Below, piece by piece: positions 4,871 to 48,825 of a stretch of DNA of 64,000 nt. The notes below the pieces were generated by a model. It was not told the origin of the DNA and did not search any database. It saw nothing but the letters and a program-made list of their open reading frames with translations. A program made the translations under genes and the position numbers. The DNA lies in assembly GCA_964572865.1 (NCBI GenBank), contig CAZNGN010000008.1:31561-95560 (forward strand), in the 5' to 3' direction. The stretch comes from an uncultured Bacteriovoracaceae bacterium. GTDB lineage: Bacteria; Bdellovibrionota; UBA1018; UBA923. Position 1 is the first letter of the stretch. Every line of letters begins with the position of its first letter.

Positions 4871-5857
4871 ATGTTTTTAAAAGATTCTTTTCAAAGAAAA
4901 TTTTCATATTTAAGACTTTCAGTTACAGAAAAATGTAATTTTAAATGTGAGTATTGTTTGCCGAATGGGTTTCAAGAATTTGCCTCAAACTATGATGAAA
5001 ATGAATTAACAATCAATGAAATAAAAAATTTAGTTACAGCATTTGCAAGTCTTGGTGTCACGAAAGTTCGACTCACTGGAGGAGAGCCAACCGTGAGACG
5101 AGATATTGTTGAAATTGTAGATGTTGTTTCGAGAATTAATGGAATTGAAGATATTGCATTAACGACAAATGGATTTAAATTGCCACAGTTAGCGCTATCT
5201 CTTCGCACTGCTGGATTGAATAAGTTAAATATTAGTTTAGATAGTTTAAATAAAAACAAATTTAATAAAATCGTCGGTGGCGACAAATTTGAATCTGTTA
5301 TGATGGGAATTGAGACTGCACTCAGTTTAAAATTTAATAGCATAAAATTAAATGCAGTTTTAACTGCAGAAACAACTGAAGATGAAGTTCAGTTGTTTTT
5401 AAATTATATTAAAAATAAACCGATTAGTGTGCGTTTCATCGAATTAATGAAAACAGAAAAAAATTCAGAATTTTTTAAAAAAAATCACATCAACGCTGGC
5501 GCTTTAAAATTATTTCTTCAAAAAAATGACTGGAAAATAATGAATAAAAAATCAACAGATGGACCTGCAATCGTTTATAGACATAATGACTACGAAGGTT
5601 CGATTGGAATTATTGCTCCATATACAGAAGGTTTTTGTGAAGACTGTAATCGTTTGAGGGTAACTTCAGTGGGCGGTTTAAGGCTTTGCTTATTTGGAGA
5701 AAATGACTATCAATTGCGAGATTTATTACAAAATGAAAATCACAGTAATGATTTAATAAATCGCATTCAATCTGCAGTACTAGAAAAACCAGAAAGTCAT
5801 TTTTTAAAATATGGAATTGTAGGAAAAAATACACATTTTGCTCAAATTGGAGGCTAA
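4871..5857 (+). CDS. moaA: GTP 3',8-cyclase MoaA, a radical-SAM enzyme
   Basis: N-terminal YLRLSVTEKCNFKCEYC radical-SAM CxxxCxxC cluster. The size and C-terminal Cys motif are typical of MoaA. Confidence 0.85.
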   Translation: MFLKDSFQRKFSYLRLSVTEKCNFKCEYCLPNGFQEFASNYDENELTINEIKNLVTAFASLGVTKVRLTGGEPTVRRDIVEIVDVVSRINGIEDIALTTNGFKLPQLALSLRTAGLNKLNISLDSLNKNKFNKIVGGDKFESVMMGIETALSLKFNSIKLNAVLTAETTEDEVQLFLNYIKNKPISVRFIELMKTEKNSEFFKKNHINAGALKLFLQKNDWKIMNKKSTDGPAIVYRHNDYEGSIGIIAPYTEGFCEDCNRLRVTSVGGLRLCLFGENDYQLRDLLQNENHSNDLINRIQSAVLEKPESHFLKYGIVGKNTHFAQIGG

Positions 5858-5858
5858 C

Positions 5859-6860
5859 GTGAATCAAGAAAATGCAAATTATAAAATGATAGATATCGAT
5901 CACAAAGTGGATACGCACCGAAAAGCAGTAGCATCTGGTTATTTTTATGCCTCACACGAAACAATTAAAAAAATAATAAATAAAGAAATCCCAAAAGGCG
6001 ATGTACTTTCTTTGGCTGAAATTGCAGGCATACAAGGTGCTAAACTAACATCTCAAGTTTTGCCACTTTGTCATCCTTTGCAATTAACATCAGTCAGAGT
6101 ATGGACAGAATGTTTGGCTGATACCATCCAAGTATTTTGTGAAGCAAAAACGATATCAAAAACGGGTGTTGAGATGGAAGCATTATGTGGAGTGAACGCA
6201 GCACTACTTTGTATTTATGATTTAGTTAAAAGTGTTGATCCAGTTTTAGAAATAAAAAATATTAAGTTACATTCAAAGGAAGGCGGAAAAACCGGACATT
6301 GGATGAATCCAACAATCGAACAAAAGTCGATTGAACAGCCATCCGAGAAAAGTGCTTCTAGTGAGTTTACAAACTTACATTTTTCAGTAATCACAATGAG
6401 CGATCGAGCATATCAAGAAAAATATGAAGATCATTCTGGAGCAGAAATCGTAAGTTGGGTTCAAAAAAATAACGGAAAACTCATTCAAAAAATAATTCTT
6501 CCCGACGAAAAAGATAAGTTAATGTCTGAAATTAAAAAGTTAATTGCAGAAAAAAGTACAAATTGCATTTTAATTTCTGGGGGCACTGGTTTATCAAAAC
6601 GAGACATTACGCCTGAAGCAGTTTCTCAATTAGTAAAAGAATGTGGTGGAAAAGAAATTTGCGGTATTGGTGAATTGTTAAGAAATGAAGGAATTGCAAA
6701 AACAAAATTTGCAGTGCTCAGTCGTTCTTCGGGATATTTAATTGAAAATACTTTAATCATTACTTTGCCTGGAAGTGTAAAGGCAGTGTTAGAAAGTTTA
6801 CCTGTGATTCATGATTTAATTCCTCATATGATTCATACTGCTCGAGGTGGTTCACATTGA
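5859..6860 (+). CDS. moaC: Fusion of cyclic pyranopterin monophosphate synthase MoaC with a MogA/MoaB-type molybdopterin adenylyltransferase domain
   Basis: The N-terminal about 150 aa is MoaC-like (LTSQVLPLCHPL...EALCGVNAALLCIYD). The C-terminal about 170 aa is MogA/MoaB-like (ILISGGTGLSKRDITPEA). A GTG at 5859 lies 5 nt after GGAGG (5849-5853), so the likely start is GTG 5859 rather than the ORF-track ATG at 5838. Confidence 0.75.
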   Translation: MNQENANYKMIDIDHKVDTHRKAVASGYFYASHETIKKIINKEIPKGDVLSLAEIAGIQGAKLTSQVLPLCHPLQLTSVRVWTECLADTIQVFCEAKTISKTGVEMEALCGVNAALLCIYDLVKSVDPVLEIKNIKLHSKEGGKTGHWMNPTIEQKSIEQPSEKSASSEFTNLHFSVITMSDRAYQEKYEDHSGAEIVSWVQKNNGKLIQKIILPDEKDKLMSEIKKLIAEKSTNCILISGGTGLSKRDITPEAVSQLVKECGGKEICGIGELLRNEGIAKTKFAVLSRSSGYLIENTLIITLPGSVKAVLESLPVIHDLIPHMIHTARGGSH

Positions 6861-7939
6861 GATTTAAAATTAATAATTTAAACAATTTCTTTGGAGCATT
6901 TGCAGATATTGCGATTATGCTGCCGATTATATCGCTTTTATCTGTTCACTCAGGGTTTTCAGCCCCCACATTATTTTTAACAAGTGGTATGCTATATGTT
7001 TTCAGTTCATTGTACTATAGAGTTCCCATTTCAATTCAGCCATTAAAATCAATAGCGATTTCTTCGTTAACGTTAGGAGCAAGTTTTTATGATGTGCGAA
7101 TGGCGGGTTTTTTATTGGGATTTATTTTTGTATCTCTTTGGATTCTGAAAATTGATAAATATTTAAATAAAATTCCAGATTCGATTGTACATCAAATTCA
7201 AGTGGGGTTAGGTACACTTTTATTAATTCAAGCATACCGAAGCGATTCTAATGCGATTATATATTTAATCAGCGCAGTCGTTGCTTTTGTACCATTCTTA
7301 TCAAAAATTCCTGTGTTAGGAATTGTAGCAGTCATCGGATTATTATTTGGATTATTTTATCCAAGTTCAAGTAAAGAATTATCAATCAATTCAAATTTAC
7401 ATTGGAACATAATTATATCTCTTTTATTGCCTCAGATTATATTAACTCTTTCAAATTCAGTTGTAGCAACACAAAGAGTATGCAAAACGTATTTTAAAAG
7501 CGAAGCTAAAAATGTAAAAATGAATCGACTCATCTTTAGTATTGGATTTGGAAATATAATTTCATCAATGTTAGCTGGGTTACCGTTTTGTCATGGTTCA
7601 GGTGGGGTAACTGCTCATGCCAAAGGAGGGTCACGTAACTTTATATCAACTATAGTGACTGGTGCATTTTATATAATTTTCGGCATTATATTGTTTAATT
7701 TTAAAAATTTAACTTTTCAGTTACATCCAGTATTTATTTCATTTTTACTTGCAACGACTGGCTTTTATCATATGCAATTAGCAAAAAATACAATTTTACA
7801 AAAATTAGGAATTTTTAAAGTCATTACTTCAATTTTGATTACTGTAATTTCTTTAAATTTAATTTATGTTTTATTGTTTTCTATAATTTTAGAAATATTA
7901 GAAAATAAATATCTAAAATTGAAACGAGCATTCGTATGA
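6857..7939 (+). CDS. MOT1-family high-affinity molybdate transporter (sulfate-permease-like MFS_MOT1)
   Basis: Polytopic membrane protein carrying both MOT1 signature motifs: PISIQPLKSIAISS (consensus PxPVQPMKxIxAxA) at 7025-7066 and GLPFCHGSGGVTAHAKGGSRNF (consensus FGxMPxCHGxGGLAxQ..FGxRxG) at 7577-7642. TTG start at 6857 lies 6 nt after GAGGTGG and overlaps the upstream stop. An alternative internal ATG is at 6917. Confidence 0.7.
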   Translation: MRFKINNLNNFFGAFADIAIMLPIISLLSVHSGFSAPTLFLTSGMLYVFSSLYYRVPISIQPLKSIAISSLTLGASFYDVRMAGFLLGFIFVSLWILKIDKYLNKIPDSIVHQIQVGLGTLLLIQAYRSDSNAIIYLISAVVAFVPFLSKIPVLGIVAVIGLLFGLFYPSSSKELSINSNLHWNIIISLLLPQIILTLSNSVVATQRVCKTYFKSEAKNVKMNRLIFSIGFGNIISSMLAGLPFCHGSGGVTAHAKGGSRNFISTIVTGAFYIIFGIILFNFKNLTFQLHPVFISFLLATTGFYHMQLAKNTILQKLGIFKVITSILITVISLNLIYVLLFSIILEILENKYLKLKRAFV

Positions 7940-9207
7940 TTCGATATTCTGAAGCTTTGAATTGTATTTCTGAAATCGCATTAGAGTTAAGAGATCAAAA
8001 AGAGTTATATGAAGTTGTATCAATAAAGAATGCAACCGGTAGAGTTTCATTTAATGATGTATTTTCAACTGAAAACATTCCAAATGTTGATAATTCAGCG
8101 ATGGATGGATTTGCATTACGATCAGTAGATATACAAACTGCTTCAATTGAACATCCCATTGAGTTAAAAGTGGTAGGATCAATTGCTGCAGGAGATTTGA
8201 ATGCATGGAAAGAACATAATGATTTAACAGAAAATACATCCGTTGAAATTATGACTGGGGCACCTATCCCTTTAAATGGTGCAGACTGCGTAGTAAAAAT
8301 AGAAGATGTTAAATGTATTCATAACCAACAAGGCAAAATCATTTCGATTGTCATAAGTAAACCACTACATAAGTATGAAAATATACGACGCTTTGGTTCG
8401 GATCTGTCAATTGGAGATAAACTTCTTTCAAAAAATACGAAAATATCTTCAGAAAATATAATGGTTTTATCAAGTGTGGGGATTTCAGAAATTAAAGTTT
8501 ATAAAAAACTAAAAGTTGGAATTCTATCAACTGGATCTGAAATTGTAGATGCAGGAATTAAAAAAATAGAAAAAGCACAAGTTCGTAATTCTACGACAGC
8601 ATATATTCAGTCTATATGTGAAAAAATGATGTGTGATGTAGTTGTGTCGGAGCATGTTACTGACGATCCTGTACAATTTAGAAGTAAATTCGAAAAAATG
8701 TCATCAAATAGAATAGATGTTATTTTTACGACCGGTGCTGTATCGATGGGTAAGTATGATTTTATTCCAAATGTTTTAAGAGAATTAAATTCAGAAATTT
8801 ATTTTCATAAAGTTGCCATTAGGCCTGGTAAACCAATTATTTTCGCTAAAACAAATGATAATATAGTAGTCTTTGGTTTGCCCGGAAATCCAGTTTCAAG
8901 TGCAATTGGTCTTCGATTTTTCTTTGAACCTTATTTGAGAAGTTATTTTCAGTTAGAAAAAGAAAGTATCTTTAAAGCAAAATTATTAAAACCTACAAAT
9001 AAAATGTTAGGCCTAAGAACCTTTTTAAAAGCAAATATTAAAAATGACTGCAGTCAAATTTATATTGAACCACAAGACGGACAGTCATCTCATATTGCAA
9101 AATCATTACAGAATTCAAATGCATGGATCATTGCCGATGAAGAATTGCAAGATTTACAGACAAATCAAATAGTGAACTTTGTGCCAATTGATTCAGAGCT
9201 AATGTGA
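7936..9207 (+). CDS. moeA: Molybdopterin molybdenumtransferase MoeA
   Basis: NSAMDGFALR and GLPGNPVS motifs. About 420 aa. ATGA overlap with the upstream gene. Confidence 0.85.
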   Translation: MIRYSEALNCISEIALELRDQKELYEVVSIKNATGRVSFNDVFSTENIPNVDNSAMDGFALRSVDIQTASIEHPIELKVVGSIAAGDLNAWKEHNDLTENTSVEIMTGAPIPLNGADCVVKIEDVKCIHNQQGKIISIVISKPLHKYENIRRFGSDLSIGDKLLSKNTKISSENIMVLSSVGISEIKVYKKLKVGILSTGSEIVDAGIKKIEKAQVRNSTTAYIQSICEKMMCDVVVSEHVTDDPVQFRSKFEKMSSNRIDVIFTTGAVSMGKYDFIPNVLRELNSEIYFHKVAIRPGKPIIFAKTNDNIVVFGLPGNPVSSAIGLRFFFEPYLRSYFQLEKESIFKAKLLKPTNKMLGLRTFLKANIKNDCSQIYIEPQDGQSSHIAKSLQNSNAWIIADEELQDLQTNQIVNFVPIDSELM

Positions 9208-9214
9208 GGAAAAT

Positions 9215-9490
9215 ATGATTAAAATTGAATTAAAAATGTTTGGAACGTTTCGAAAATATGAAAACAATCAGATGATATCACAGGTTCATTCGCTAAACGC
9301 TATATCGATACAAGAAATTAAAAAACAAATATCTTTGAAACTTGAATCTATTCAAAAAAATGATTCAATCCTTGTTTTTGACTCAGCGTTTGCGAATGCT
9401 CATTCACATAAACCAATTATTTTGACTGATGAAACGATTATTTCAGAATCTTGCTCATTAGCCATTTTACCTCCTGTGTGTGGCGGTTAA
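9215..9490 (+). CDS. moaD: Molybdopterin synthase sulfur-carrier subunit MoaD
   Basis: 91 aa ending in Gly-Gly (…PPVCGG). GAGGAAAA RBS. Operon context. Confidence 0.75.
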   Translation: MIKIELKMFGTFRKYENNQMISQVHSLNAISIQEIKKQISLKLESIQKNDSILVFDSAFANAHSHKPIILTDETIISESCSLAILPPVCGG

Positions 9491-9961
9491 ATGAAACAAA
9501 ACATTAAATGTTCAATTACAAATAATAAAATTAATATAATGAATGCAATTCAATTTGTGCAGTCATCTGAGTTGGGCGCGCAGAATATTTTCATTGGAAC
9601 GGTTCGATCTCCAAATCACAATCAAGAAGTTGTTTCGGTTCATTACGATGTATTTGAACCAATGGCATTAAATACTTTTAATGAAATAGCGAATGAAGTG
9701 CTAGCAAAGTTAAGCATGAGCCTTAAAATATATATTGAACATCGAGTAGGTATTTGTCCGACCGGTGAAGAAAGTATTGTAATTGCCGTAGGATCAAAAC
9801 ATCGCGAAGATTCTTACAAAGCTTCTAGATACATTATTGAAGAAATTAAAAAACGTTCACCGATTTGGAAAAAAGAAATTTATTCTACTGGAGAGAGTGA
9901 GTGGCTACAGGGGCATTCTCTTTGCCAATATTCAAATGGTGTTGAGCATTCACTGTATTAG
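9491..9961 (+). CDS. moaE: Molybdopterin synthase catalytic subunit MoaE
   Basis: 156 aa with a MoaE-like core (FIGTVR...HRVG...VIAVGSKHREDSYKASRYIIEEIKKRSPIWKKE). TAAATG overlap with moaD. Confidence 0.8.
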   Translation: MKQNIKCSITNNKINIMNAIQFVQSSELGAQNIFIGTVRSPNHNQEVVSVHYDVFEPMALNTFNEIANEVLAKLSMSLKIYIEHRVGICPTGEESIVIAVGSKHREDSYKASRYIIEEIKKRSPIWKKEIYSTGESEWLQGHSLCQYSNGVEHSLY

Positions 9962-10700
9962 TACATGTTTTACAATTGGAATTTTTTAGAATTTCAAAAG
10001 TATGTATTTTAGGCATTTCTGAAAAATCTAAATGAATGAATTTAGATTTAGTAACATTTAGTGGATTTGCTAAATATAAAATACTTTCGGTCGCTTGTAT
10101 GCCAGCAACAATTCCGGCAAATGAGCCTAACACACCAGCGCTTTCACAAGTTTGAATTCGTGCTTTTGGTTTTTGAGGATATACACATCGAAAACAAGGA
10201 CCATTATGTAAATTAAAAATTCCAACATGACCTTCAAATTGATCAATGGATCCATAAATAAATGGTTTCGAATAATTAAAACTAAAATCATTAATTAGTA
10301 ATTTAGTTTCAAAGTCATCGCATGCATCAATGATGATGTCATATTGTGCAAATAAATCATCCGCTATTTCGGAAGTTAATTGATAAGGATATGCAATTAC
10401 ATTTGTATTTGAATTAAATTTCTTTAAATTGTGTTGAGCTGCTAACGCTTTGTTTGTTCCTACATTCTCTTCAGAAAACAAAATCTGTCTGTGTAAATTG
10501 GATAAGCTTACCGTATCATAATCAATAACACCGATTGTTCCGATTCCTGCAGAAGCAAGATACATTGAAATGGGATTTCCTAATCCTCCCATTCCAACTA
10601 TGAGTGCTTTTGAATTGAGTAAGTTAGTTTGGCCGTTCGGCCCAATTTGGTTTAAACTAATCTGTCTTTGAAAGCGGATTGGATCAAACATTTTTGCCAA
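9885..10700 (-). CDS. moeB: Molybdopterin-synthase adenylyltransferase of the MoeB/ThiF E1-like family
   Basis: IVGMGGLGNPISMYLASAGIGTIGVIDYDTVSLSNLHRQ Rossmann/ThiF motif. C-terminal CxxC...CxxC zinc site. Its 3' end overlaps the convergent moaE by 77 nt. Confidence 0.8.
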   Translation of the reverse strand: MAKMFDPIRFQRQISLNQIGPNGQTNLLNSKALIVGMGGLGNPISMYLASAGIGTIGVIDYDTVSLSNLHRQILFSEENVGTNKALAAQHNLKKFNSNTNVIAYPYQLTSEIADDLFAQYDIIIDACDDFETKLLINDFSFNYSKPFIYGSIDQFEGHVGIFNLHNGPCFRCVYPQKPKARIQTCESAGVLGSFAGIVAGIQATESILYLANPLNVTKSKFIHLDFSEMPKIHTFEILKNSNCKTCTNTVNAQHHLNIGKENAPVATHSLQ

Positions 10701-12312: not shown

Positions 12313-12504
12313 TTATTGTGTAGTCCAAGAGTCTTGGCAGATGGTTGGATCGTTTGCTTCTTCAATATCTAGGTCTGAAGGATCGCCAGTGAGTGAAGCT
12401 TGAGTGCCCGTTTCAGCAGTTTTGTCAGTTACTTTTGAAGTGCATGATCCGATTGAAAGTGAAAGCGCTAGTAAAATGATAACGATACTGAAATATTTTG
12501 ACAC
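12313..12504 (-). CDS. Small lipoprotein, 63 aa
   Basis: GTG start 5 nt after AGGGGG. Signal peptide with lipobox IGSC. Acidic mature part. Confidence 0.45.
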   Translation of the reverse strand: MSKYFSIVIILLALSLSIGSCTSKVTDKTAETGTQASLTGDPSDLDIEEANDPTICQDSWTTQ

Positions 12505-12726
12505 AAAAACCCCCTGATATTGTCAATTATATCAGTTTATCGGCAAAATGTTCATAGACTTTAGTTATTTTTTAAGTATATGAAATTATTGATATATTAT
12601 TGACAGTTTGTGCTCTTCACTGTTTTGTATCATTAGAAAACAGCATGAAATTCAAGAAAAGTTGCATAATATCCGATAATTATAGTAAGATATTATATAT
12701 CTATATATATTGTACGTTGGTGGGGA

Positions 12727-15675
12727 ATGAAAATAAGGGTTCTATTATTTATTTTAGTTTTAGTCTCAGTTATCGGATTATCGTTCGATGCAATTGCAAC
12801 TCCATACTACGAGTTTGATACAACAAATTTTTATCCTGGCGATATTGGTGAAGATTCACAACCGACGATTAGTATAAGTGGTTGCCCATCTTATGGTGTC
12901 ACATTTGGAATCTATGATGATTCAAGTTGCACTAATTTAGCATTTGTTCCTAGTGCTCCGATTATGTGTATTGCACCACCAGATCCGTTCTTAGTTACAA
13001 CTACGAAAACATTAACAACAACCGGAATTTATAATTATTATATAAAATTTAATGGAGCTTGCGATATAAATTCAACTCATTACTTAAATAATTCTGCACC
13101 ACTTAAATATTATTATTTAAATCCGACTATGGAATTAGATCCGGTACAAACTCCAAACTATACTGATACTACTCCCACAATTTTAATTCATTCGGCGCTT
13201 CCTAATTCAATCTTAGAATTATTTAAAGATTCAAGCTGTAGCCAAAGCGTAAGCTCAACTGCTAATGCAAGCTCTACTGGTGAAGCTTCTATTACAACAA
13301 ATCATATTTTAACTGCATTGAATTTTTACTTAAAAGTGAAACGAAATTTAACTGATGATGGATATTGCATTCAAAATCATGTTTTATTTTATCCATTAAA
13401 TTCAGCTCTTGTTACAATGTCTAGAATTAATCCAACAGGTAGTAGATCAAATACAGTATTAAATCCTAAATTTAGAATTTCTAACATAAACACAATGGCA
13501 GGTCAGGTCATTAAATTAAAAGCTAAAAATACTAGTACAAATATTATTTCAACATCAGCAAATCATACAATTACTTCTATAGAGGCAAATGATGGATATG
13601 TTGATATCACATTTTCGCCTTCGCTAACTTGTTCGGCTTCCGTTTGTATTTTTAGTATTTATCCTAACATAAATGCTAACGATCATTACTATGTAGCTCT
13701 TGATTATATTTATGATATTGCAACGCCTTCGATTAATTCATTAACGTATACGATCAATGGTCAATTGAATTCACAATATAATACAAACAATGGAAATGTG
13801 ACAATATCTCTAAATCAAATTTGGCAAGATGATGTTTATACATTTTATTTTTATGCTAACAATAATTGTTCAGGCACCGAGAGTTCAATCGCAATATCAA
13901 ACTTTCAATCTAGTATCACAACGAATATTGATTTAGCTTTTGATGGAACTTATCAATTTTCTTATAAAGCAAAAGATTCAGCTGGTAACAATTCTTCACC
14001 AACATGTAGAATATTTACTAATCCAATCATTGCTGGATCAAACATAAACATGACAATAGATCGAGTCAGTCCTAATATCAGTAATATTAATATACAAAAA
14101 TCTGTAAACGGAGTTCTTCAAAATGCAAATGGACTTTGGTCTGATACAGTTAGTATTACTGCTAATTCAACTGATAATTCATATATTTTAAGTACTGCAA
14201 CAAAACTTAATATGAATAGAACTTATAATAATGTGGTATATAATGCGCAATTTAATTTAAATTGTACAAATAATGCACAAAATACAAGTTCAAATTGTTC
14301 ACTATCTCTTGATACGTTAAATAATTCTCAGTTTTTAGATCAATTTAAGTATATTCCAAATCAATCATCTACGCCTATATTATTAAGCTCAAATGCTGGT
14401 GTAAATTCTAACGGAAGTTATAACTTTACATTGAGTACGCTTGATAATTTTGGCAATTCTTACACATCTGCATCCTATTCAGCAGTTATATCAAATGATT
14501 TTGTCTCTCCAGTTATCAGTTTTAACAGTCCGCCAGAAAATGCAACTTTAAATGGAAATCCAACTTGTATTTTGGCAACAGGAACAGCGTTCCCTGTACA
14601 GCTGCAGCTTTCAGATGATACAGGTGGAAACAAAACTATGTTCGTATTTATGAATGAAAATCAAGCATCATTGCCAAGTGCATTTTCAAATGCAAATTGT
14701 CCTATAAGTGGAAGTACTACATTGCAGGGTATATCTACTATAAATATATTTCAAAGCGGAAATGTAAGTAATGGATTGTTTTCAACAAGTTTGAATACGA
14801 TTAGTAAAGCAAATAATATTTATTACTTGCGAGCTGTCGCCTGCGATTCTGCCGGACATATGAGTGTAGCACATGATTCATGTTTGAAAATTGCAAATGC
14901 AGTGAATGATACTGCAATTCCAACTGGATTAGCATTTAATAGTACACCAACAACTGCAAGTGGAAATAATTTTATTTTAACTGCAAAAGTTTTTGATGAT
15001 GTTCAAATCGCAAAAGTAGAGTTGTATAAGAATGGAGCACTTTATATGGTTAGTAGTGTTCCGCAAGATTTTACTCCGAATGCAGGTGATCCATGGAAAT
15101 ATGATTTTAAAATTAATACGCTAACGTTACCAAATGGCAGTGCTACATTTGCATTGAGAGCGTGTGATACTTCGAATAATTGCACATCCTTGACTGCTTC
15201 GATCATAGTAACGATACAAAATGCTGATCTAATTTTGCAGGCAGAAAACTATACGCCCATTGCAGGTTTGGTGTTTCCAATTGCTACATCTGCAGCAACA
15301 GGAAGTCCGATTGTGATTTCATTTCCTGTAGGTACTTCAAAATTTAATTGGATCACATATACTGTACAGCCACGATTTGCAGCAAATAATGATTATTATG
15401 TTTACGTACGATTGAGAGCAAAAGATTCAAATTTACCAACAGGATTAAAAATAAGTTTAGACAACGGTTTAACCTTTACGAATATGTCATATCGAAAAAA
15501 TAATACGTTTAAATGGTGTCGTTATCAGGTGAACGCTACTACTGCTCGAAAATTTAAATTTGATCCAGCTAATCCTAAGTCAGTTCAATTTAAATTTAAT
15601 AATTCAAATCTTGAAGTAGATAAAATATCGATTCTTCCTGCCGATGCCACTTCAATCAACCTACAAAATCAGTAA
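12727..15675 (+). CDS. Large secreted Asn/Ser/Thr-rich surface protein, 982 aa, a probable adhesin with Ig-like beta domains
   Basis: Signal peptide MKIRVLLFILVLVSVIGLSFDAIA. 982 aa uninterrupted. Highly N/S/T-rich with many NxS/T sites. No enzymatic motif recognised. Confidence 0.6.
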   Translation: MKIRVLLFILVLVSVIGLSFDAIATPYYEFDTTNFYPGDIGEDSQPTISISGCPSYGVTFGIYDDSSCTNLAFVPSAPIMCIAPPDPFLVTTTKTLTTTGIYNYYIKFNGACDINSTHYLNNSAPLKYYYLNPTMELDPVQTPNYTDTTPTILIHSALPNSILELFKDSSCSQSVSSTANASSTGEASITTNHILTALNFYLKVKRNLTDDGYCIQNHVLFYPLNSALVTMSRINPTGSRSNTVLNPKFRISNINTMAGQVIKLKAKNTSTNIISTSANHTITSIEANDGYVDITFSPSLTCSASVCIFSIYPNINANDHYYVALDYIYDIATPSINSLTYTINGQLNSQYNTNNGNVTISLNQIWQDDVYTFYFYANNNCSGTESSIAISNFQSSITTNIDLAFDGTYQFSYKAKDSAGNNSSPTCRIFTNPIIAGSNINMTIDRVSPNISNINIQKSVNGVLQNANGLWSDTVSITANSTDNSYILSTATKLNMNRTYNNVVYNAQFNLNCTNNAQNTSSNCSLSLDTLNNSQFLDQFKYIPNQSSTPILLSSNAGVNSNGSYNFTLSTLDNFGNSYTSASYSAVISNDFVSPVISFNSPPENATLNGNPTCILATGTAFPVQLQLSDDTGGNKTMFVFMNENQASLPSAFSNANCPISGSTTLQGISTINIFQSGNVSNGLFSTSLNTISKANNIYYLRAVACDSAGHMSVAHDSCLKIANAVNDTAIPTGLAFNSTPTTASGNNFILTAKVFDDVQIAKVELYKNGALYMVSSVPQDFTPNAGDPWKYDFKINTLTLPNGSATFALRACDTSNNCTSLTASIIVTIQNADLILQAENYTPIAGLVFPIATSAATGSPIVISFPVGTSKFNWITYTVQPRFAANNDYYVYVRLRAKDSNLPTGLKISLDNGLTFTNMSYRKNNTFKWCRYQVNATTARKFKFDPANPKSVQFKFNNSNLEVDKISILPADATSINLQNQ

Positions 15676-15779
15676 AATTACTCCTTAACGCAGCGCGCTT
15701 AAGACATATATGCCTAGATAATTATTGATAAATTATACAAAAAATTGAAGACTAAGTTATCCTAACAGAAGGGGGAAAT

Positions 15780-16010
15780 ATGAAGACAATCATGTCATCA
15801 ATCTTATGTTTAATGTTCGTTGGAGCATCAGCGTTTGCTTGTCCTTGCAAAGAAGGAAAAGAAGCAAAAGCCACTGAAAAAGGCGCTAAAGTAGCTTGTG
15901 CATGTAAAGAAGGCAAAGAATGTAAAAGCTGCAAAGAGTGCAATGGCAAAAACTGCGAGCATCATAAGCATAAAGATGCTGAACCTAAAAAAGAAGAAGC
16001 ACATACATAA
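15780..16010 (+). CDS. Small secreted Cys/His/Lys-rich protein, metallothionein-like and probably metal-binding
   Basis: AAGGGGG RBS. Signal peptide (…GASAFA). The 56-aa mature part has 8 Cys in CPC, CAC, CKSCKEC and NC motifs with the internal repeat C(P/A)CKEGKE, and a C-terminal HHKHK. Confidence 0.6.
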   Translation: MKTIMSSILCLMFVGASAFACPCKEGKEAKATEKGAKVACACKEGKECKSCKECNGKNCEHHKHKDAEPKKEEAHT

Positions 16011-16124
16011 GTATTTGTAACCACTAGGTTAATGGCTATTTCAAGGACGATTGACACGGAGTATTAATTCGTGATAGCTACTTAGTTGTCGTCGTCTCGT
16101 CAGTACATGAGAAGGGGAATGTGT

Positions 16125-17798
16125 ATGATGAGAGTTAAAAGTCTAATAATTATTTCTATTATTATTTTATCTTCTTTGGTTTTTACCGCATGTAAAAATC
16201 CATTTAGTAAGGAAGATTCTAGTTCGCAAAACTCTACAAATACTCCTGCACCAACTTTCACTGGAGTTGTAATTGGCATTGATCCTACGACCGATTTAAC
16301 GTTAGCTCCACAATTAATTAAAGATACAGTTCTTTGGGACTCTTCTGGAAAAGTAGTAACTGGCACAATGGAAGATCGTGGAACTTGGGATTTAACTTCT
16401 GCATTTTTAGGTGAAGGACACTATTCAGGTGTTTCAAATTTACCAAACTCAAATCAAGTTTGCACTGGTAATACGATTTTAGGTGTTACAGGAGCAGCTG
16501 TTTGCCAAAGTGGAACAGCAACCACGCTTGCTTCTACTTCTCAAATTTTATCGGGATTTCAAGCTTGGGATTCTACAGGCACGTTGATGACGGGAACAAT
16601 GACTTCTCAAGGAAGTTTAAATGCTTCTCTTAGTTTTCCGGGAGCTGGATATTATTCAGGCACTGTAACTAACTTACCGACAACTTCACAAGTTTGTAGT
16701 TCAGTGAATGTATTAGGAGTTACAGGAGCAGCTGTTTGTCAAAGCGGCTCGACTACTTCTCCTGCCGGTGTTGGAAATATTTTAAATGGCTTAGAAGCTT
16801 GGAGTGCGACAGGCAATAAGATTACAGGCACTATGCCAAATCGTGGTTCATTAGATGCGACTCAGAGTTTTCCGGGAAATGGGTATTACTCTGGAATTGT
16901 AACCAATTCTCCAACTGCAGCTACCATTTGTAGTGGAAATACAGTTTTAGGTATAGCAGGAACTGCAATTTGTGGAGCACCTGCAACTCCATATTCATCA
17001 AATGCAAATCGCGATAAAAACACTACTCAAATTACACAGCTTCAAGAAACTGTGACGTATGCTGGTACTAGTTTGCCAAATAATTATCGCGAAATGCCAT
17101 TTGTATCTAAAGATGATGATGGTTCATTTTCATCAAATGCTACTAAAGTTGTGCGAACAACTTTTGTGAATTGTGGATTAACACAAACTACGATTACAGC
17201 TCGAATCAGCGACTGCGCAACCTTAAATGGTGTCAATGCAACGTGGGATGGACAGGTCAAAGGAAATAATGGTTTTGGTGTATGGAAGCTTGTTACAAGA
17301 ACCGCAGCAAATATCGAAGTATGGCGTGATGAACGCACAGGTTTATTGTGGTCATCAAAAGTTGCAACATCAAAAAATTGGTGTAAAGCTTCTGGAAATA
17401 ATAATAGTTCAGTTGTAACAAACACAAATTTTAAAGAAAATGATCCCAATGGTACTTGTACGAATTCATCGAATCAAAATACAACCACAGCACCAATTTC
17501 ATATTGTTTAGAAAATGCACAATTTGATACTTCAAATGTAAATGCTGCAGGCAAAGCTGGATTAAAAGCAAGTTCAACACCAACTGTTCGTTGGAGGCTA
17601 CCTACTTTGAATGATTATTTGCAAGCACAAGTGGATGGTATTAATTTAGTGCTTCCTGATTTTAGTACTTCGTATGAATGGACGGCAACGATTAACTCAG
17701 CAAATACATCGCAAGCATGGATGTATAGACCTGCATCAACAATCATTGCAACCAATCCTAGATCAAATAATCGCGATGTTCGTTGTGTGGGAAGATAA
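16125..17798 (+). CDS. Lipoprotein with three tandem Cys-capped repeats of about 70 aa and a C-terminal DUF1566 (Lcl C-terminal, lectin-like) domain
   Basis: GAAGGGGAA RBS then ATG at 16125, chosen over the upstream in-frame ATG at 16086. Lipobox VFTAC. The repeats end in QVCxxNxxLGVTGAAVC. The C-terminal domain has VWRDERTGLLWS...VRWRLPTLNDYLQA...YEW, typical of DUF1566. Confidence 0.65.
   Translation: MMRVKSLIIISIIILSSLVFTACKNPFSKEDSSSQNSTNTPAPTFTGVVIGIDPTTDLTLAPQLIKDTVLWDSSGKVVTGTMEDRGTWDLTSAFLGEGHYSGVSNLPNSNQVCTGNTILGVTGAAVCQSGTATTLASTSQILSGFQAWDSTGTLMTGTMTSQGSLNASLSFPGAGYYSGTVTNLPTTSQVCSSVNVLGVTGAAVCQSGSTTSPAGVGNILNGLEAWSATGNKITGTMPNRGSLDATQSFPGNGYYSGIVTNSPTAATICSGNTVLGIAGTAICGAPATPYSSNANRDKNTTQITQLQETVTYAGTSLPNNYREMPFVSKDDDGSFSSNATKVVRTTFVNCGLTQTTITARISDCATLNGVNATWDGQVKGNNGFGVWKLVTRTAANIEVWRDERTGLLWSSKVATSKNWCKASGNNNSSVVTNTNFKENDPNGTCTNSSNQNTTTAPISYCLENAQFDTSNVNAAGKAGLKASSTPTVRWRLPTLNDYLQAQVDGINLVLPDFSTSYEWTATINSANTSQAWMYRPASTIIATNPRSNNRDVRCVGR
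16311..16973 (+). repeat. Three tandem in-frame repeats of about 70 aa (210-225 nt) in the DUF1566 lipoprotein
   Basis: Each unit reads (ILxGxxAW(D/S)xxGxxxTGTMxxRGSxxxxxSFPGxGYYSGxVTNxPTxxxxCxxxxxLGxxGxAxC). The three units align with each other. Confidence 0.6.
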
Positions 17799-25405: not shown

Positions 25406-26128
25406 GTGATGAAAATGGTGATTATGAAGAAAAAATTCTCGATTTTAATTCTATTTTTGATGTTCAATTACATTTTTGCTGAAGAAAAAGATGCAAAAGT
25501 AGTTCAGAAAGAAGAAAAAGTTACTCAAAGTGATGAAAAATCAAAAATTTCGCCAATGAAAGGTACATTATTTGAGTTTTTGAAGAAAAAATATGGTTCT
25601 ACAACCACTTTGAAAGCAAATTTTGTTCAAATACAAAAAAATAAAATGATGGGATCAGAAAAAAAATCAGAAGGCGTGCTCGAAATCAAACGTCCAGACA
25701 AATTTCGTTGGGACACACTCAAGCCAGATCCAACTTTGTTACTTTCGAACGGAAAAAAAATAATTTATTACACTCCACCCTTTCATGAAGGTGAAAAAGG
25801 ACAAGTGATTTTCAAAAAATCAGCAGATGTGCAATCAAAATTGGCCATTGATTTACTCTCAGGTAGTGCCAACTTAAAACAAGACTTTAAACCTAAAAAA
25901 ATCGCTGATAGACACTACGAGTTAATTCCGATCAATAAAAACCTTGGTGATATCAATAAGATAGAGCTTTATATTGATCCTAAGGCCAATTTAGTCTATA
26001 AGGTCGTATTACAACACACCACAGAAAATGAGACGGAAATTGAACTACAAAACGTTCAACTAGCTGAAAAAATTGAAGAGAATCGATTTGAATTTCAAGT
26101 TCCGCCAAACACCGAAGAGATAAAGTAG
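25406..26128 (+). CDS. lolA: Outer-membrane lipoprotein carrier protein LolA-like
   Basis: Signal peptide. LKANFVQIQKNKMMGSEKKSEGVLEIKRPDKFRW matches the LolA family core. The start may be an internal ATG at about 25424. Confidence 0.6.
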   Translation: MMKMVIMKKKFSILILFLMFNYIFAEEKDAKVVQKEEKVTQSDEKSKISPMKGTLFEFLKKKYGSTTTLKANFVQIQKNKMMGSEKKSEGVLEIKRPDKFRWDTLKPDPTLLLSNGKKIIYYTPPFHEGEKGQVIFKKSADVQSKLAIDLLSGSANLKQDFKPKKIADRHYELIPINKNLGDINKIELYIDPKANLVYKVVLQHTTENETEIELQNVQLAEKIEENRFEFQVPPNTEEIK

Positions 26129-46115: not shown

Positions 46116-47462
46116 TTATCGCACTTTTGGGCAAGTCATCAAACGATATTTCTCAAAAATAATGTTATAATTTGGCTTATTTTCATTATACCAAGAGGCA
46201 CTACGTTGCAAGGTATGGCAATTTAAGCAAGTTGTTACAGTGAGAGATTGAATGGGGTTATGTCCACCGGGACTATGACAATGTTCACATTGAACATTTT
46301 TAAACTCATTTTTAAATTGGCTAAGATTTTTATATCCACCATTTTGATTCAGACCCAATGTATGGCATTGAAGGCATTCGAGATTCTGACTTTGATTTTT
46401 ATGAACCAATGTTTCATATGCTTTCGAATGTCGTTGGTTTAAATGAAATTGAAATTGTTCTTGATGGCATTGTTTGCAAGATTGTACTGTTTTTATTTTT
46501 GGAGTTGCATTGTTATCCGAAAGGAGAACATGATCAATTTTTTTATTAACTTCTGCAATTTGTGTTTTATTTTTTTCAATTAATTTATCTAATGAGTTTA
46601 AATTCGAATCTTTTGAATCAAGGTCTTCGCTCATATTGAACAGTTGATTAGAAACACCGTCATATATTCCGATATGTTCGCCTCGAAGTGAAGCTTCAAA
46701 TATATTCGTTTGATTTATGCGAATTGGATTTGTTAAAAAATTCATCGAATGAGAAGAAAAGATAAAGTCAATGCCAGACACTTTTTGAGCAAGCAATTCG
46801 TCTTGTAAGGTGCCTGAATGAGATAAAAGTATAATATAGTTTACGTTTTGCGATTTTAATTTTGAAACTATTTTTTCGGCTGTTTCAACAAGAGGAACTG
46901 CTGAGAGCTCTGGCGGTAAGTTAAACTCAGGATTAAATAATCCAAATATTCCCACTTTTTTATTCGCAATGATTTGTATTGCATATGGCTGAAATACTAA
47001 ATCTTCTGAATTTTTAAAAACAATGTTTGAATTAATAATTTTAAAATTAGCATTTTTGACAATTGATTGAAACGTGTTTAAGCCCGCGCTCAAATCAATT
47101 TCTCCAGGCGTAAAGAATTGCACGCCTAATGTGTTGTATGCCGTTACTAAGTTTTTTGCTTGAACGATGTATTGTGGAAGTAGATATTCTGGTGGGTTTG
47201 CGGTTGGCAAAAACGTATCACCACTATCTAAAGAAAGAGATTCAATTTCTTTGGATAGTGAATTTAGCCAATTGAGTCTTCTGTGAACACCTCCTAACGG
47301 ATTGCTTCGGCAACCGCAGGGTGCAATTTCACCATTTATGTTCGAAGAATATAATATGCGAAACCCTAAAGATGAATTTGGATTGTTATCTTTTTTAGAA
47401 GAAGTATGTGAGCATGAAATGAAAGAAGCTGTTAAGCAAATAATGTATAAAAAATACTTCAA
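46116..47462 (-). CDS. Lipoprotein fusing a degenerate 5'-nucleotidase-like metallophosphoesterase domain to a C-terminal tetraheme c-type cytochrome
   Basis: Lipobox FISC. UshA-like blocks (KKVGIFGLFNPE; YIILLSHSGTLQDELLAQKVSGIDFIFSSHS), but the N-terminal metal-ligand motif is degenerate (ILYSSNINGE instead of HTND.HG). Four CxxCH motifs (CKQCH, CLQCH, CEHCH, CLNCH) in the last about 110 aa. Confidence 0.6.
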   Translation of the reverse strand: MKYFLYIICLTASFISCSHTSSKKDNNPNSSLGFRILYSSNINGEIAPCGCRSNPLGGVHRRLNWLNSLSKEIESLSLDSGDTFLPTANPPEYLLPQYIVQAKNLVTAYNTLGVQFFTPGEIDLSAGLNTFQSIVKNANFKIINSNIVFKNSEDLVFQPYAIQIIANKKVGIFGLFNPEFNLPPELSAVPLVETAEKIVSKLKSQNVNYIILLSHSGTLQDELLAQKVSGIDFIFSSHSMNFLTNPIRINQTNIFEASLRGEHIGIYDGVSNQLFNMSEDLDSKDSNLNSLDKLIEKNKTQIAEVNKKIDHVLLSDNNATPKIKTVQSCKQCHQEQFQFHLNQRHSKAYETLVHKNQSQNLECLQCHTLGLNQNGGYKNLSQFKNEFKNVQCEHCHSPGGHNPIQSLTVTTCLNCHTLQRSASWYNENKPNYNIIFEKYRLMTCPKVR

Positions 47463-48238
47463 GATTTTTTCAATTTAGATTTTGCTTTTTTAGCTTCAGG
47501 AGATTGAGGAAAACGTTCTAATAATTCTTGAAAAAAGCTTTGACCGTCTTTAGCAGAGCCTAATTGTTCAAAGCACAAACCAATTTTTAATAATGCGGCT
47601 GGAATGCGAGGAGACTTTGAAAAAGACTCTTGTACTTTCGAGTATTCTACAATCGCTTTTTTCCATGCCTTTTGTCCGTAAGCGGCTTCACCTAAGCCAA
47701 AATGCATTTCGGCAGCTTCTTTTCCTTTAGGATTTTTCTCTCCAAATTCTTTAAATTTGTCTGCAGCTCCATCGTAATTTTTAGCCATTAGTAGAGAATA
47801 ACCGTCTTGAAGTAAGGTTTTTGAAGAAGCAGATTTTCCACCTTTTTTAGAAGGTGGCTCTGATTTTGATTCACTTTCACTGTTTGATCTGTCTTTTAAA
47901 TCTTTTAATTCTGTCATGATTAACATTTGATTTTTTTCTAGATCAGCGACACGCATATCAAGTTTAGCTACATTTTGATTGGTGTCAGCAGTGTTCATAC
48001 CTTTTTGTTCGTGTTCGAGTTCTTCTAATTTACCTGAAATTCTAGTGATTTCATTCTTCAACTCTTCTAATTCATAATGAGAAGGTTTGGCTGAAACTGT
48101 TTTTGCAGTGCCTGAAACGTTTTGTGAATCGTCGGCATTGTCGTCATCGCCTTTGACCATTGTACGAGTTTTTAAACATCCAGAGAAAATGAGAGCGATG
48201 AGTAAAATTGAAAATGAGTATACGTTTTGTTTTTTCAT
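47459..48238 (-). CDS. cpoB: Tol-Pal system protein CpoB/YbgF (coiled-coil plus TPR)
   Basis: Signal peptide and lipobox. Central coiled coil (ELEELKNEITRISGKLEELEHEQ). C-terminal TPR repeats. Confidence 0.7.
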   Translation of the reverse strand: MKKQNVYSFSILLIALIFSGCLKTRTMVKGDDDNADDSQNVSGTAKTVSAKPSHYELEELKNEITRISGKLEELEHEQKGMNTADTNQNVAKLDMRVADLEKNQMLIMTELKDLKDRSNSESESKSEPPSKKGGKSASSKTLLQDGYSLLMAKNYDGAADKFKEFGEKNPKGKEAAEMHFGLGEAAYGQKAWKKAIVEYSKVQESFSKSPRIPAALLKIGLCFEQLGSAKDGQSFFQELLERFPQSPEAKKAKSKLKKS

Positions 48239-48819: not shown

Positions 48820-48825
48820 TCTTAA

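What the first reader, a model, noticed from the sequence alone, without database searches (positions are those of the whole stretch)
15780..16010. Signal-peptide-bearing 76-aa Cys/His/Lys-rich protein resembling a periplasmic metallothionein
After a predicted signal peptide, the 56-residue mature peptide has 8 Cys arranged as CxC, CxC, CxxCxxC and NC. It has an internal near-repeat (CPCKEGKEAK / CACKEGKECK), a C-terminal HHKHK patch and about 30% Lys/Glu. Bacterial metallothioneins such as SmtA and BmtA are cytoplasmic, so a secreted CxC-repeat peptide is unusual. It could be a periplasmic Cu/Zn/Cd buffer, a metallochaperone, or a cysteine-knotted antimicrobial or signalling peptide. It shares the AAGGGGG-type Shine-Dalgarno with the flanking small lipoprotein and DUF1566 lipoprotein genes. 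Its G+C looks slightly higher than its surroundings.
Basis: partly seen in the sequence, partly recalled or inferred. Interest (0 to 1): 0.6.

Follow-up and report, generated by a model that had tools for sequence, protein, structure and literature searches.

The report
Orphan exported cysteine-rich small protein
A real, conserved 76-codon gene in a poorly sampled Bdellovibrionota-like bacterium encodes an exported 56-residue Cys/Lys/Glu-rich peptide; its composition is metallothionein-like, but it has no detectable relatives and no metal-handling genes nearby, so a periplasmic metal-binding role is plausible but unproven.

Summary
The ORF at 15780-16010(+) is as described: 76 aa, an N-terminal export signal ending AFA|C, then 56 residues with 8 Cys (CPC, CAC, CxxCxxC, NC), a 10-residue internal repeat and a CEHHKHK patch. 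It is a genuine gene. A syntenic orthologue of 81% identity differs mostly at third codon positions (8/4/25; dN/dS 0.09).

It is an orphan. An exhaustive phmmer search of 1.84 billion representatives found only itself. Pfam, NCBIfam, PDB, plasmids and phages gave nothing. AlphaFold gave no confident fold (pLDDT 46-48).

The host is a diderm (LolA, Pal). The gene sits among surface-protein and polysaccharide genes, and the 64 kb holds no metal-resistance, metal-sensor or Dsb genes.

The mature peptide has one hydrophobic residue, no aromatics and 43% Lys+Glu, which is metallothionein-like. The same CxCKEGKECK word recurs in unrelated metagenomic proteins, both cytosolic and signal-peptide-bearing.

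Leading reading (about 0.4): an exported, possibly lipid-anchored, thiolate/His metal-binding peptide. Main rival (about 0.3): a disulfide-bonded envelope peptide. It belongs to no known metallothionein family.

The parts
15770..15775 (+). Shine-Dalgarno AGGGGG (within AAGGGGGA), 4 nt upstream of the ATG
   Evidence: Read directly. Conserved as AAGGGGGA in L001. The G-run type is shared with the three adjacent exported-protein genes.
15780..15839 (+). Codons 1-20, MKTIMSSILCLMFVGASAFA: predicted Sec signal peptide (n-region with K2, 12-15-residue hydrophobic core, c-region S-A-F-A with Ala at -3 and -1). Together with Cys21 it also fits a lipobox pattern.
   Evidence: Inspection. It matches a PROSITE PS51257-type lipoprotein rule. 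19 of 20 residues are identical in the orthologue despite 8 third-position changes. No predictor was run, so this is inferred, not shown.
15840..16007 (+). Mature 56-aa peptide: 8 Cys, 14 Lys, 10 Glu, 4 His, 1 hydrophobic residue, no aromatics. Calculated pI 8.4, mass 6.1 kDa, GRAVY -1.48.
   Evidence: Under purifying selection. AlphaFold pLDDT 46-48, so no confident fold.
15840..15869 (+). Repeat unit 1, CPCKEGKEAK
   Evidence: 8/10 aa and 23/30 nt identical to unit 2. The orthologue has CPCQEGKDAK.
15897..15926 (+). Repeat unit 2, CACKEGKECK
   Evidence: Invariant in all five known sequences.
15921..15974 (+). C-terminal cluster C48-x2-C51-x2-C54-x4-C59-E-H-H-K-H-K: four Cys followed directly by the His patch
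   Evidence: Read directly. The Cys, E60, H61, H62 and K65 are invariant; H64 is lost in P0005.
16008..16010 (+). TAA stop codon

Best explanation
The gene encodes a small envelope peptide. It is made with a Sec signal peptide and is released into the periplasm by signal peptidase I at AFA|C, or tethered to a membrane through Cys21 if the lipobox-like SAFAC is used. The 56-residue product is extremely hydrophilic and probably has no fold of its own. It is proposed to bind soft or borderline metal ions (Cu(I), Zn(II), Cd(II)) through its four thiolate motifs (CPC, CAC, CxxCxxC, C59) with help from the adjacent His pair. It would then act as a metallothionein-like buffer or hand-over point in the envelope. 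Shown: the gene is real, constrained and restricted to one small lineage; it has an export-type N-terminus; its composition is metallothionein-like; the host is a diderm. Inferred: cleavage or lipidation, periplasmic location, reduced thiols, and metal binding itself.
For: It is a real gene under purifying selection (dN/dS 0.09; codon-position differences 8/4/25). At 81% identity it is better conserved than both neighbours, which are 42% and 67% identical. The export signal shows n-h-c regions and an AXA site. The host has LolA, a Pal-like OmpA lipoprotein and a CpoB-like protein, so it has a periplasm and an outer membrane. The mature peptide has 8 Cys in CxC and CxxC motifs, 0 aromatic and 1 hydrophobic residue, and Lys flanking most Cys. 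These are the compositional hallmarks of metallothioneins, and a disulfide-knotted globule would normally keep some hydrophobic core. Two AlphaFold runs give pLDDT 46-48 with almost no secondary structure, which fits a peptide that folds only around metal, though the alignment was very shallow. The same CxCKEGKECK word occurs in metagenomic proteins that must be cytosolic: a GrpE with an N-terminal Cys/His extension ending HHHK, and a 37-aa, 12-Cys ORF. There it cannot serve as a disulfide scaffold. It also occurs in a separate family with a signal peptide and 20-24 Cys. Cys-based metal sites are known in the periplasm: Tat-exported Csp1, and CopG with a CxCC Cu4 cluster (PMC7558416). The few exported proteins in the window show no even-Cys bias (19, 12, 1, 3, 1, 11, 4 Cys).
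Against: No homology to any metallothionein family (Pfam at E<=10, NCBIfam, PDB). Cys content is 14%, at the low end for metallothioneins. No metal-efflux, metal-sensor, chaperone or Dsb gene lies in the 64 kb; the neighbours are adhesin-like surface proteins and O-antigen or capsule genes. No recognisable metal-regulator operator was seen upstream, by eye only. The periplasm of an aerobe is oxidising (the window encodes c-type cytochromes), and 8 is an even number, so four disulfides are an equally simple outcome (principle: PMC2823432). Cys conservation is not statistically informative at 77-82% identity. The resemblance to the metagenomic CxC-rich proteins is only 25 bits after selection on the motif. 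It may reflect easy emergence of a purine-rich, low-complexity sequence rather than shared function.
Confidence: 0.4

Rival explanations
1. It is a disulfide-bonded envelope peptide. After export the 8 Cys are oxidised, for example CPC paired with CAC as a two-rung ladder plus two bonds in the C-terminal cluster, or in intermolecular bonds to the Cys-rich surface proteins encoded next door. The peptide, possibly lipid-anchored, would then be a structural or cross-linking component of the outer envelope, in the way the small Cys-rich lipoprotein OmcA works in chlamydiae.
For: It has an export signal and an even number of Cys after an AXA cut. Exported proteins of aerobic Gram-negative bacteria tend to pair their Cys (PMC2823432). 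The gene is embedded, with conserved synteny, between a 982-aa Ig-like surface protein (19 Cys) and a Cys-containing lipoprotein (12 Cys), and all share a G-run Shine-Dalgarno. The N-terminus fits a lipobox rule. The low-confidence full-length AlphaFold model pairs the CPC and CAC segments as strands.
Against: The mature peptide has one hydrophobic residue and 43% Lys+Glu, which is unusual for a compact disulfide-rich domain. No similarity to OmcA (Pfam Chlam_OMP3) or to any knottin- or defensin-type family. If it is lipidated, 7 Cys remain, an odd number. No Dsb gene is visible, though only 64 kb was seen. Neither AlphaFold run gave a confident model.
Confidence: 0.3
2. The N-terminal hydrophobic segment is not cleaved and acts as a membrane anchor, with the Lys-rich tail staying in the cytoplasm (N-out, C-in). 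The product would be a membrane-tethered cytosolic metallothionein-like peptide.
For: There are four Lys within the 15 residues after the hydrophobic segment and only one before it, so the positive-inside rule (established knowledge) leans toward a cytoplasmic tail. The first 18 mature residues have net charge +2, which tends to hinder Sec export in Gram-negative bacteria (knowledge, not tested). The hydrophobic segment is more conserved (19/20) than the tail (43/56), as expected if it has a lasting role.
Against: The hydrophobic core is only 12-15 residues, short for a transmembrane helix and typical of a signal peptide. It ends in a textbook Ala-X-Ala site, or a lipobox-like motif. The difference in conservation is not statistically significant.
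Confidence: 0.1
3. It is a secreted cationic antimicrobial, toxin-like or signalling peptide aimed at other cells.
For: It is small, carries an export signal, has net charge +3 and multiple Cys, and is restricted to one lineage like many bacteriocins. The nearest named relative of the host is a Bdellovibrionota MAG, a phylum that includes predators.
Against: It has no amphipathic or hydrophobic surface, with one hydrophobic residue. No immunity, transporter, modification or receptor genes are adjacent. There is no double-glycine leader, too few Ser/Thr for a lanthipeptide, and no radical-SAM maturase nearby. A Sec signal alone delivers only to the periplasm in a diderm.
Confidence: 0.08
4. It is a young, lineage-specific ORF of low-complexity origin (purine-rich AAAGAAGGAAAAGAA repeats) with no specific biochemical role, or it is not translated.
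For: It has no homologues beyond two close lineages. It has an internal repeat and purine-rich, low-complexity DNA. Similar words arise independently in unrelated proteins.
Against: dN/dS is 0.09 with dS about 0.9, differences are biased to the third position, the Shine-Dalgarno and start are conserved, and conservation exceeds that of both flanking genes.
Confidence: 0.04

Closest known systems
Bacterial metallothioneins SmtA/BmtA/PmtA (Pfam PF02069)
   Same: About 56 residues. A similar Cys density (SmtA has 9 Cys plus His ligands in 56 aa, from knowledge). CxC motifs with His taking part. Almost no hydrophobic core.
   Different: No sequence match, even at E<=10. The known proteins have no signal peptide; PmtA explicitly lacks one (PMC11237414). 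Their genes usually sit with a metal sensor, and here there is none.
Csp1-type copper storage proteins
   Same: A Cys-rich protein exported to the periplasm that binds metal through thiolates. This shows that Cys-based metal storage outside the cytoplasm exists (PMC7558416).
   Different: Csp1 is Tat-exported and is a pre-folded four-helix bundle of about 120 aa that forms tetramers. Here the signal is Sec-type with no twin arginine, the peptide is 56 aa with no predicted fold, and there is no homology.
CopG (periplasmic CxCC Cu4-cluster protein)
   Same: A periplasmic protein that uses closely spaced Cys to hold a multinuclear copper cluster (PMC7558416).
   Different: CopG has a thioredoxin-like domain and is genetically linked to copA/cus/cueO. 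Neither feature is present here.
Chlamydial OmcA (small cysteine-rich outer-membrane-complex lipoprotein, Pfam Chlam_OMP3)
   Same: A precursor of about 9 kDa, a signal with Cys at +1, and a hydrophilic Cys-rich mature part. It is located among envelope proteins and acts through disulfide cross-links (from knowledge; named in PMC1403754).
   Different: No Pfam match. The lipobox here is atypical (-3 Ala, -2 Phe). It has fewer Cys. The host is not a chlamydia.
Eukaryotic Cu-thioneins and intermembrane-space Cys proteins (yeast Cup1, Cox17)
   Same: Lys/Glu/Asn-rich peptides of 50-70 aa with CxC motifs, including CPC. Cox17 works in the intermembrane space, a compartment comparable to the periplasm (from knowledge, not tested).
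   Different: No detectable homology. Cox17 has twin Cx9C helices, which are absent here.
Uncharacterised metagenomic proteins with a signal peptide and 20-24 Cys (L043 1728-2129, L012 6255-6641 and relatives)
   Same: A signal peptide followed by a CxC-, Lys-, Glu- and Asp-rich, hydrophobic-free region that contains CGCKEGKECKCKSCK, compared with CACKEGKECKSCKEC here.
   Different: Only 25 bits in BLASTP after selection on the motif, so homology is not shown. They have two to three times the Cys density and sit in a different genomic setting, downstream of a DUF1538 transporter-like gene. That family is also tiny and unnamed: 7 clusters, annotated 'hypothetical protein'.

Membership tests
BmtA/SmtA bacterial metallothionein (Pfam PF02069 Metallothio_Pro) | Sequence match to the family profile (zinc-finger-like fold, Cys9His2 ligand pattern) | tested here: not met
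   No Pfam hit at E<=1 on the precursor or at E<=10 on the mature peptide. No PDB sequence hit at E<=10, and PDB includes SmtA 1JJD.
BmtA/SmtA bacterial metallothionein (Pfam PF02069 Metallothio_Pro) | Cytosolic protein without an export signal | tested here: not met
   The N-terminus is a typical n-h-c signal with an AXA site. This was judged by inspection and pattern only.
Metallothionein in the operational sense (small, Cys-rich, metal-thiolate cluster protein) | Low mass, CxC/CxxC/CC motifs, few or no aromatic residues | tested here: met
   6.1 kDa; two CxC motifs and one CxxCxxC; 0 Phe/Trp/Tyr and 1 hydrophobic residue.
Metallothionein in the operational sense (small, Cys-rich, metal-thiolate cluster protein) | High Cys content (typically 15-30%) | tested here: inconclusive
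   8/56 = 14%, just under the usual range and close to SmtA's 16% (the ranges are from knowledge).
Metallothionein in the operational sense (small, Cys-rich, metal-thiolate cluster protein) | Binds several metal ions in thiolate clusters; metal-dependent folding | not testable with these tools
   The only indirect evidence is that two AlphaFold runs gave no confident apo fold (pLDDT 46-48).
Sec-dependent secretory protein (signal peptidase I substrate) | Positively charged n-region, 7-15-residue hydrophobic core, small residues at -3 and -1 | tested here: met
   MK-TIMSSILCLMFVGA-SAFA|C, with Ala at -3 and -1. Conserved in the orthologues. No trained predictor was available.
Bacterial lipoprotein (Lgt/LspA substrate) | Lipobox [LVI][ASTVI][GAS]C at the end of the signal peptide | tested here: inconclusive
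   S-A-F-A-C passes a PROSITE PS51257-type rule. However, -3 is Ala and -2 is Phe, unlike the other eight candidate lipoproteins in the window (FTAC, IGSC, FSGC, MIGC, LTAC and others). LolA is present in the window.
Csp1-type copper storage protein | Twin-arginine signal and a four-helix bundle lined with Cys | tested here: not met
   There is no RR motif in MKTIMSS. The peptide is 56 aa with one predicted 7-residue helix. No Pfam, NCBIfam or PDB hit.
Chlamydial OmcA (Pfam Chlam_OMP3) | Profile match; lipoprotein with intermolecular disulfides in the outer membrane complex | tested here: not met
   No Pfam hit. Disulfide state cannot be tested here.
Ferredoxin-type [4Fe-4S] site (CxxCxxCxxxCP) | Cx2Cx2Cx3CP spacing in a cofactor-loaded protein, exported by Tat if periplasmic | tested here: not met
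   The spacing is Cx2Cx2Cx4CE and the signal is Sec-type, so the protein would cross the membrane unfolded and without a cluster (rule from knowledge).

The most novel reading that the evidence does not exclude
This is a natural, Sec-exported (perhaps lipid-anchored) metallothionein-type peptide, that is, a periplasmic thiolate/His metal buffer. It would be one instance of an unrecognised, repeatedly invented class of signal-peptide-bearing CxC/Lys/Glu-rich proteins. That class would also include the 20-24-Cys proteins found in digester and activated-sludge metagenomes.
Probability: 0.3. Interest if true: 0.65.

Novelty: new variant of a known kind. Interest (0 to 1): 0.4.

Why it matters
Every characterised bacterial metallothionein (SmtA/BmtA, PmtA, MymT) is made without an export signal. 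Known periplasmic metal handling relies mostly on Met/His proteins or on folded Cys proteins such as Csp1 and CopG. A small, unstructured Cys/His peptide that buffers metal in the envelope would add a new element to bacterial metal homeostasis. It would also raise the question of how thiols stay reduced, or become metal-loaded, next to the disulfide-forming machinery. Such a peptide would be a compact natural scaffold for surface metal capture. If it is instead a disulfide cross-linker, it would be an OmcA-like envelope component outside the chlamydiae. Either way it is a testable 56-residue peptide. As it stands, it is one more lineage-restricted orphan with an attractive composition.

Tried and rejected
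- **Homologue searches.** The word-indexed search of 5.8 billion proteins found only the protein itself and one 81% cluster. Exhaustive phmmer against 1.84 billion representatives found only itself. Plasmid and phage tblastn found nothing.
- **Genome-collection scans.** Two scans, one with the small protein and one with the neighbouring oxidoreductase, returned nothing. The automatically chosen patterns were N-terminal, so the organism could not be named from a genome title.
- **Exact look-ups.** Look-ups of window proteins were not on record.
- **Synteny.** The 74% relative's contig (L002) ends inside the downstream lipoprotein gene. The 54% and 48% relatives (L003, L004) have a different gene order and no small Cys-rich ORF.
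- **Structure.** Two AlphaFold jobs gave pLDDT 46 and 48. No fold search was run, because it would have been meaningless.
- **Families considered and rejected.** Pfam, NCBIfam and PDB gave no hit. Rejected: ferredoxin-type Fe-S site (wrong spacing, Sec export); c-type haem site (no CxxCH); ZAS anti-sigma motif (absent); RiPP precursor (no maturase nearby, too few Ser/Thr); horizontal-transfer island (G+C at the 78th percentile; synteny conserved).
- **RNA and antisense alternatives.** Rfam found nothing in 15400-16400. The antisense ORFs at 15752-15949 and 15828-16004 are rejected by the codon-position pattern of substitutions.
- **Paralogues.** No other small ORF in the window has at least 6 Cys together with a plausible start and export signal.
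- **Homology to the metagenomic CxC-rich secreted family.** Not accepted: 25 bits after motif selection.

Full report
**1. What is there**

Window 15780-16010 (+) is an ATG-to-TAA ORF of 76 codons: MKTIMSSILCLMFVGASAFACPCKEGKEAKATEKGAKVACACKEGKECKSCKECNGKNCEHHKHKDAEPKKEEAHT. AAGGGGGA precedes it, ending 4 nt before the ATG.

The first 20 residues have the shape of a Sec signal peptide: Lys2, a hydrophobic core SSILCLMFVGA, and a c-region S-A-F-A with Ala at -3 and -1. The two 10-residue units CPCKEGKEAK and CACKEGKECK match at 8/10 aa and 23/30 nt. HHKHK follows directly after the last Cys.

The mature part contains 14 Lys, 10 Glu, 8 Cys, 7 Ala, 4 Gly and 4 His, with a single hydrophobic residue (Val) and no aromatic residue. 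Calculated pI is 8.4, mass 6.1 kDa and GRAVY -1.48. Long ORFs in the window contain 1.3% Cys, so 8 Cys in 56 residues is far beyond chance (P about 6e-7).

Three details needed correction:
- Lys+Glu is 43% of the mature peptide and 33% of the precursor.
- G+C is 38.1% against a window mean of 34.2%. That is the 78th percentile of 231-nt windows, and the downstream gene reaches 42%. There is no compositional anomaly.
- The downstream 'DUF1566' assignment rests on a sub-threshold Lcl_C match.

**2. Is it a gene?**

Yes. One relative exists at 81% identity (P0002, from a public sequencing run, locus L001). It lies in the same gene order: MoaE, ThiF, POT transporter, 63-aa lipoprotein, large Ig-like protein, small Cys protein, lipoprotein, FAD oxidoreductase, DegT, sugar transferase.

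The two coding sequences differ at 8, 4 and 25 sites in codon positions 1, 2 and 3. Nei-Gojobori dN/dS is 0.09 with dS about 0.9. The upstream spacer is only 51% identical, whereas the CDS is 83% identical. The small protein (81%) is better conserved than either flanking protein (42% and 67%). This pattern also rules out the two antisense ORFs.

Three further near-identical variants of P0002 (P0003-P0005) keep every Cys. The His patch reads HHNHK or HHK-K in them, so only HH is fixed. All-Cys conservation is weak evidence at this distance: with about 23% of mature positions changed, 8 of 8 Cys would survive by chance about 12% of the time.

**3. How far does the family reach?**

Nowhere else. 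The indexed search of 5.8 billion proteins collected only two clusters. The exhaustive phmmer scan of 1.84 billion representatives returned only the query. Pfam at E<=10, NCBIfam, PDB sequences, plasmids and phages gave nothing.

Following the neighbouring oxidoreductase outward gave three results. A 74% relative sits on a contig that ends inside the lipoprotein gene (L002). Relatives at 54% and 48% have a different gene order and no counterpart (L003-L005). The closest relative with an organism name is a Bdellovibrionota MAG at 54%.

The window encodes LolA, a Pal-like OmpA lipoprotein, a CpoB-like TPR protein and several c-type cytochromes. The host is therefore a diderm with a periplasm and a lipoprotein-sorting pathway, and it probably respires.

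**4. Context**

Upstream lie a molybdenum-cofactor cluster, a POT transporter, a divergent 63-aa lipoprotein and a 982-aa Ig-like surface protein. Downstream lie a 557-aa lipoprotein with a weak Lcl_C domain, then an LhgO-like oxidoreductase, DegT, a sugar transferase and glycosyltransferases. Nothing in the 64 kb is a metal pump, metal sensor, metallochaperone or Dsb enzyme.

The four adjacent exported-protein genes at 12313-17798 carry 4 of the 5 GGGG-type ribosome-binding sites among 54 ORF starts. In L001, however, the downstream gene has AGGAAG instead.

No intrinsic terminator separates the three plus-strand genes. Rfam finds nothing in the region.

**5. Soluble or lipid-anchored?**

The same N-terminus that gives a perfect Ala-X-Ala site places Cys at +1. 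S-A-F-A-C passes a PROSITE-type lipoprotein rule. The other candidate lipoproteins in the window have L, F, I, M or S at -3 and G, A or S at -1 (FTAC, IGSC, FSGC, MIGC, LTAC). Ala at -3 with Phe at -2 is therefore atypical.

I cannot decide this without a trained predictor or an experiment. It matters because lipidation would consume Cys21 and leave seven thiols.

A third possibility is an uncleaved anchor with a cytoplasmic tail. The Lys-rich start of the tail suggests it, but the short hydrophobic core argues against it.

**6. Structure**

AlphaFold2 gave mean pLDDT 46 with the five-sequence alignment, and 48 for the mature part alone. Almost no secondary structure was predicted. With so shallow an alignment this is weak evidence. 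It fits a peptide with no fold of its own, and it made fold searches pointless.

**7. Analogues**

A metagenome scan for DNA encoding CxCKEGKExK found 43 loci. Most are chance or non-coding, but several are instructive.

- A group from digester and activated-sludge samples encodes 120-133-aa proteins. Each has a signal peptide (...LLSTVYVSA|KEKCC...) followed by a hydrophobic-free region with 20-24 Cys that contains CKCGCKEGKECKCKSCENCKCGC.
- A 37-aa ORF reads MAKKCDCGEKCSCSCGCKEGKECKCGPDCPCSCGCKE.
- A 258-aa signal- or anchor-bearing protein ends in ...CNCGCKEGKECKCGH.
- A GrpE carries the N-terminal extension MSKEDKKHKHDECDKNCTCGCKEGKECKCEDKKHHHK.

None has a Pfam or NCBIfam family. The secreted family is itself tiny: 7 clusters, annotated 'hypothetical protein'.

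BLASTP between the window protein and the L043 protein gives 25 bits. After selection on the motif, that is not evidence of common descent. What the set does show is that this word is used in Cys/His-rich appendages of cytosolic proteins, where only metal binding makes chemical sense. It also shows that hydrophilic CxC-rich proteins with signal peptides occur more than once in nature.

**8. Interpretation**

Two models fit about equally simply.

(a) An exported metallothionein-like peptide. For it: the composition, the lack of a hydrophobic core or predicted fold, the Cys-His juxtaposition, the analogues, and the existence of periplasmic Cys-based metal proteins such as Csp1 and CopG (PMC7558416). 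Against it: no metal genes nearby, no family membership, and the oxidising periplasm.

(b) A disulfide-bonded envelope peptide, possibly cross-linked to the Cys-rich surface proteins encoded beside it, like chlamydial OmcA. For it: export, an even Cys count, and the surface-protein neighbourhood (principle in PMC2823432). Against it: the near-total absence of hydrophobic residues, and the odd Cys count if it is lipidated.

The handful of exported proteins in the window show no even-Cys bias (19, 12, 1, 3, 1, 11, 4 Cys), but the sample is too small to weigh.

I rank (a) at about 0.4 and (b) at about 0.3. Lower down are a cytoplasm-facing tethered version (0.1), an antimicrobial or signalling peptide (0.08) and a functionless young ORF (0.04).

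**9. Comparison with the known**

It works, if at all, like a metallothionein, but it is not a member of the BmtA/SmtA family or any other curated family. The profile match was tested and not met. The defining cytosolic location is contradicted by the signal peptide. Metal binding could not be tested.

The literature available here has no 'periplasmic metallothionein'. The one report of a surface-exposed bacterial metallothionein, PmtA, stresses that it lacks a signal peptide (PMC11237414).

**10. Verdict**

Novelty: an orphan, lineage-restricted variant of the general kind 'small Cys-rich metal-binding or disulfide peptide', unusual in being exported.

Interest is moderate (0.4). It is cheap to test and would be a first if metal binding in the envelope were shown. 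At present, though, it is one of many uncharacterised small secreted orphans.

Noticed in passing
window 16045-16103 (intergenic, between the small gene and the lipoprotein gene): The downstream spacer is 77% identical to L001, against 51% for the upstream spacer. It has perfectly conserved blocks GGACGATTGACACG and TTCGTGAT.(A/T)CTACTTAGTTGTCGTCGTCTCGTCA. A short CACG...CGTG stem has a diverged loop. It is unique in the window, has no Rfam hit and has fold z-score -0.4. It is probably a promoter, operator or leader for the lipoprotein gene.
   Followed up: partly
window 12313-17798: Four adjacent genes for exported proteins (63-aa lipoprotein on the minus strand, 982-aa Ig-like protein, the small Cys protein, 557-aa lipoprotein) carry 4 of the 5 GGGG-type Shine-Dalgarno sites among 54 ORF starts. 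Most other genes have GGAG-like sites or none. In L001 the lipoprotein gene has AGGAAG instead.
   Followed up: partly
L043 1728-2129(-), L012 6255-6641(-), also L018, L024, L030, L035, L039, L040, L047, L048: An unnamed family from digester and activated-sludge metagenomes: a signal peptide followed by about 100 hydrophobic-free residues with 20-24 Cys (CxC, CC, CKCGCKEGKECKC). It has no Pfam or NCBIfam match and only 7 clusters in 5.8 billion proteins. It lies downstream of a second secreted Cys-containing ORF, an unassigned 371-aa ORF and a DUF1538 (UmpAB-like) membrane protein. By composition it is a much stronger candidate for a secreted metallothionein than the window gene.
   Followed up: partly
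L032 284-841(-); L044 990-1103(+); L026 3572-4348(+): The same CGCKEGKECKC word appears in three other settings: as an N-terminal Cys/His extension of a GrpE (…CEDKKHHHK), as a 37-aa 12-Cys stand-alone ORF next to a membrane protein with an N-terminal CC motif, and as the C-terminal tail of a 258-aa signal- or anchor-bearing protein.
   Followed up: no
window 15780-15839 against 15840-16007: The signal-peptide region is more conserved at the protein level (19/20) than the mature peptide (43/56), despite 8 synonymous changes. This is the reverse of the usual pattern, but it is not statistically significant with one comparison.
   Followed up: no
window 4871-10700: A compact molybdenum-cofactor cluster (MoaA, MoaC-MogA/MoaB fusion, MOT1-type MFS molybdate transporter, MoeA, MoaE, MoeB/ThiF) lies 5 kb upstream and is also present in L001. 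No functional link to the Cys-rich peptide is evident.
   Followed up: no
window 25406-26128, 47459-49320: LolA, a CpoB-like TPR protein and a Pal-like OmpA-domain lipoprotein show that the source is a diderm with the Lol lipoprotein-sorting pathway. The nearest named relative of a neighbouring gene is a Bdellovibrionota MAG at 54% identity, so the lineage is very poorly sampled.
   Followed up: partly
window 15684-15703: A GC-rich imperfect hairpin, CTTAACGCAGCGCGCTTAAG, lies just after the stop of the 982-aa gene with no T-run. It is absent from L001 and was not called by the terminator scan. Seen by eye only.
   Followed up: no
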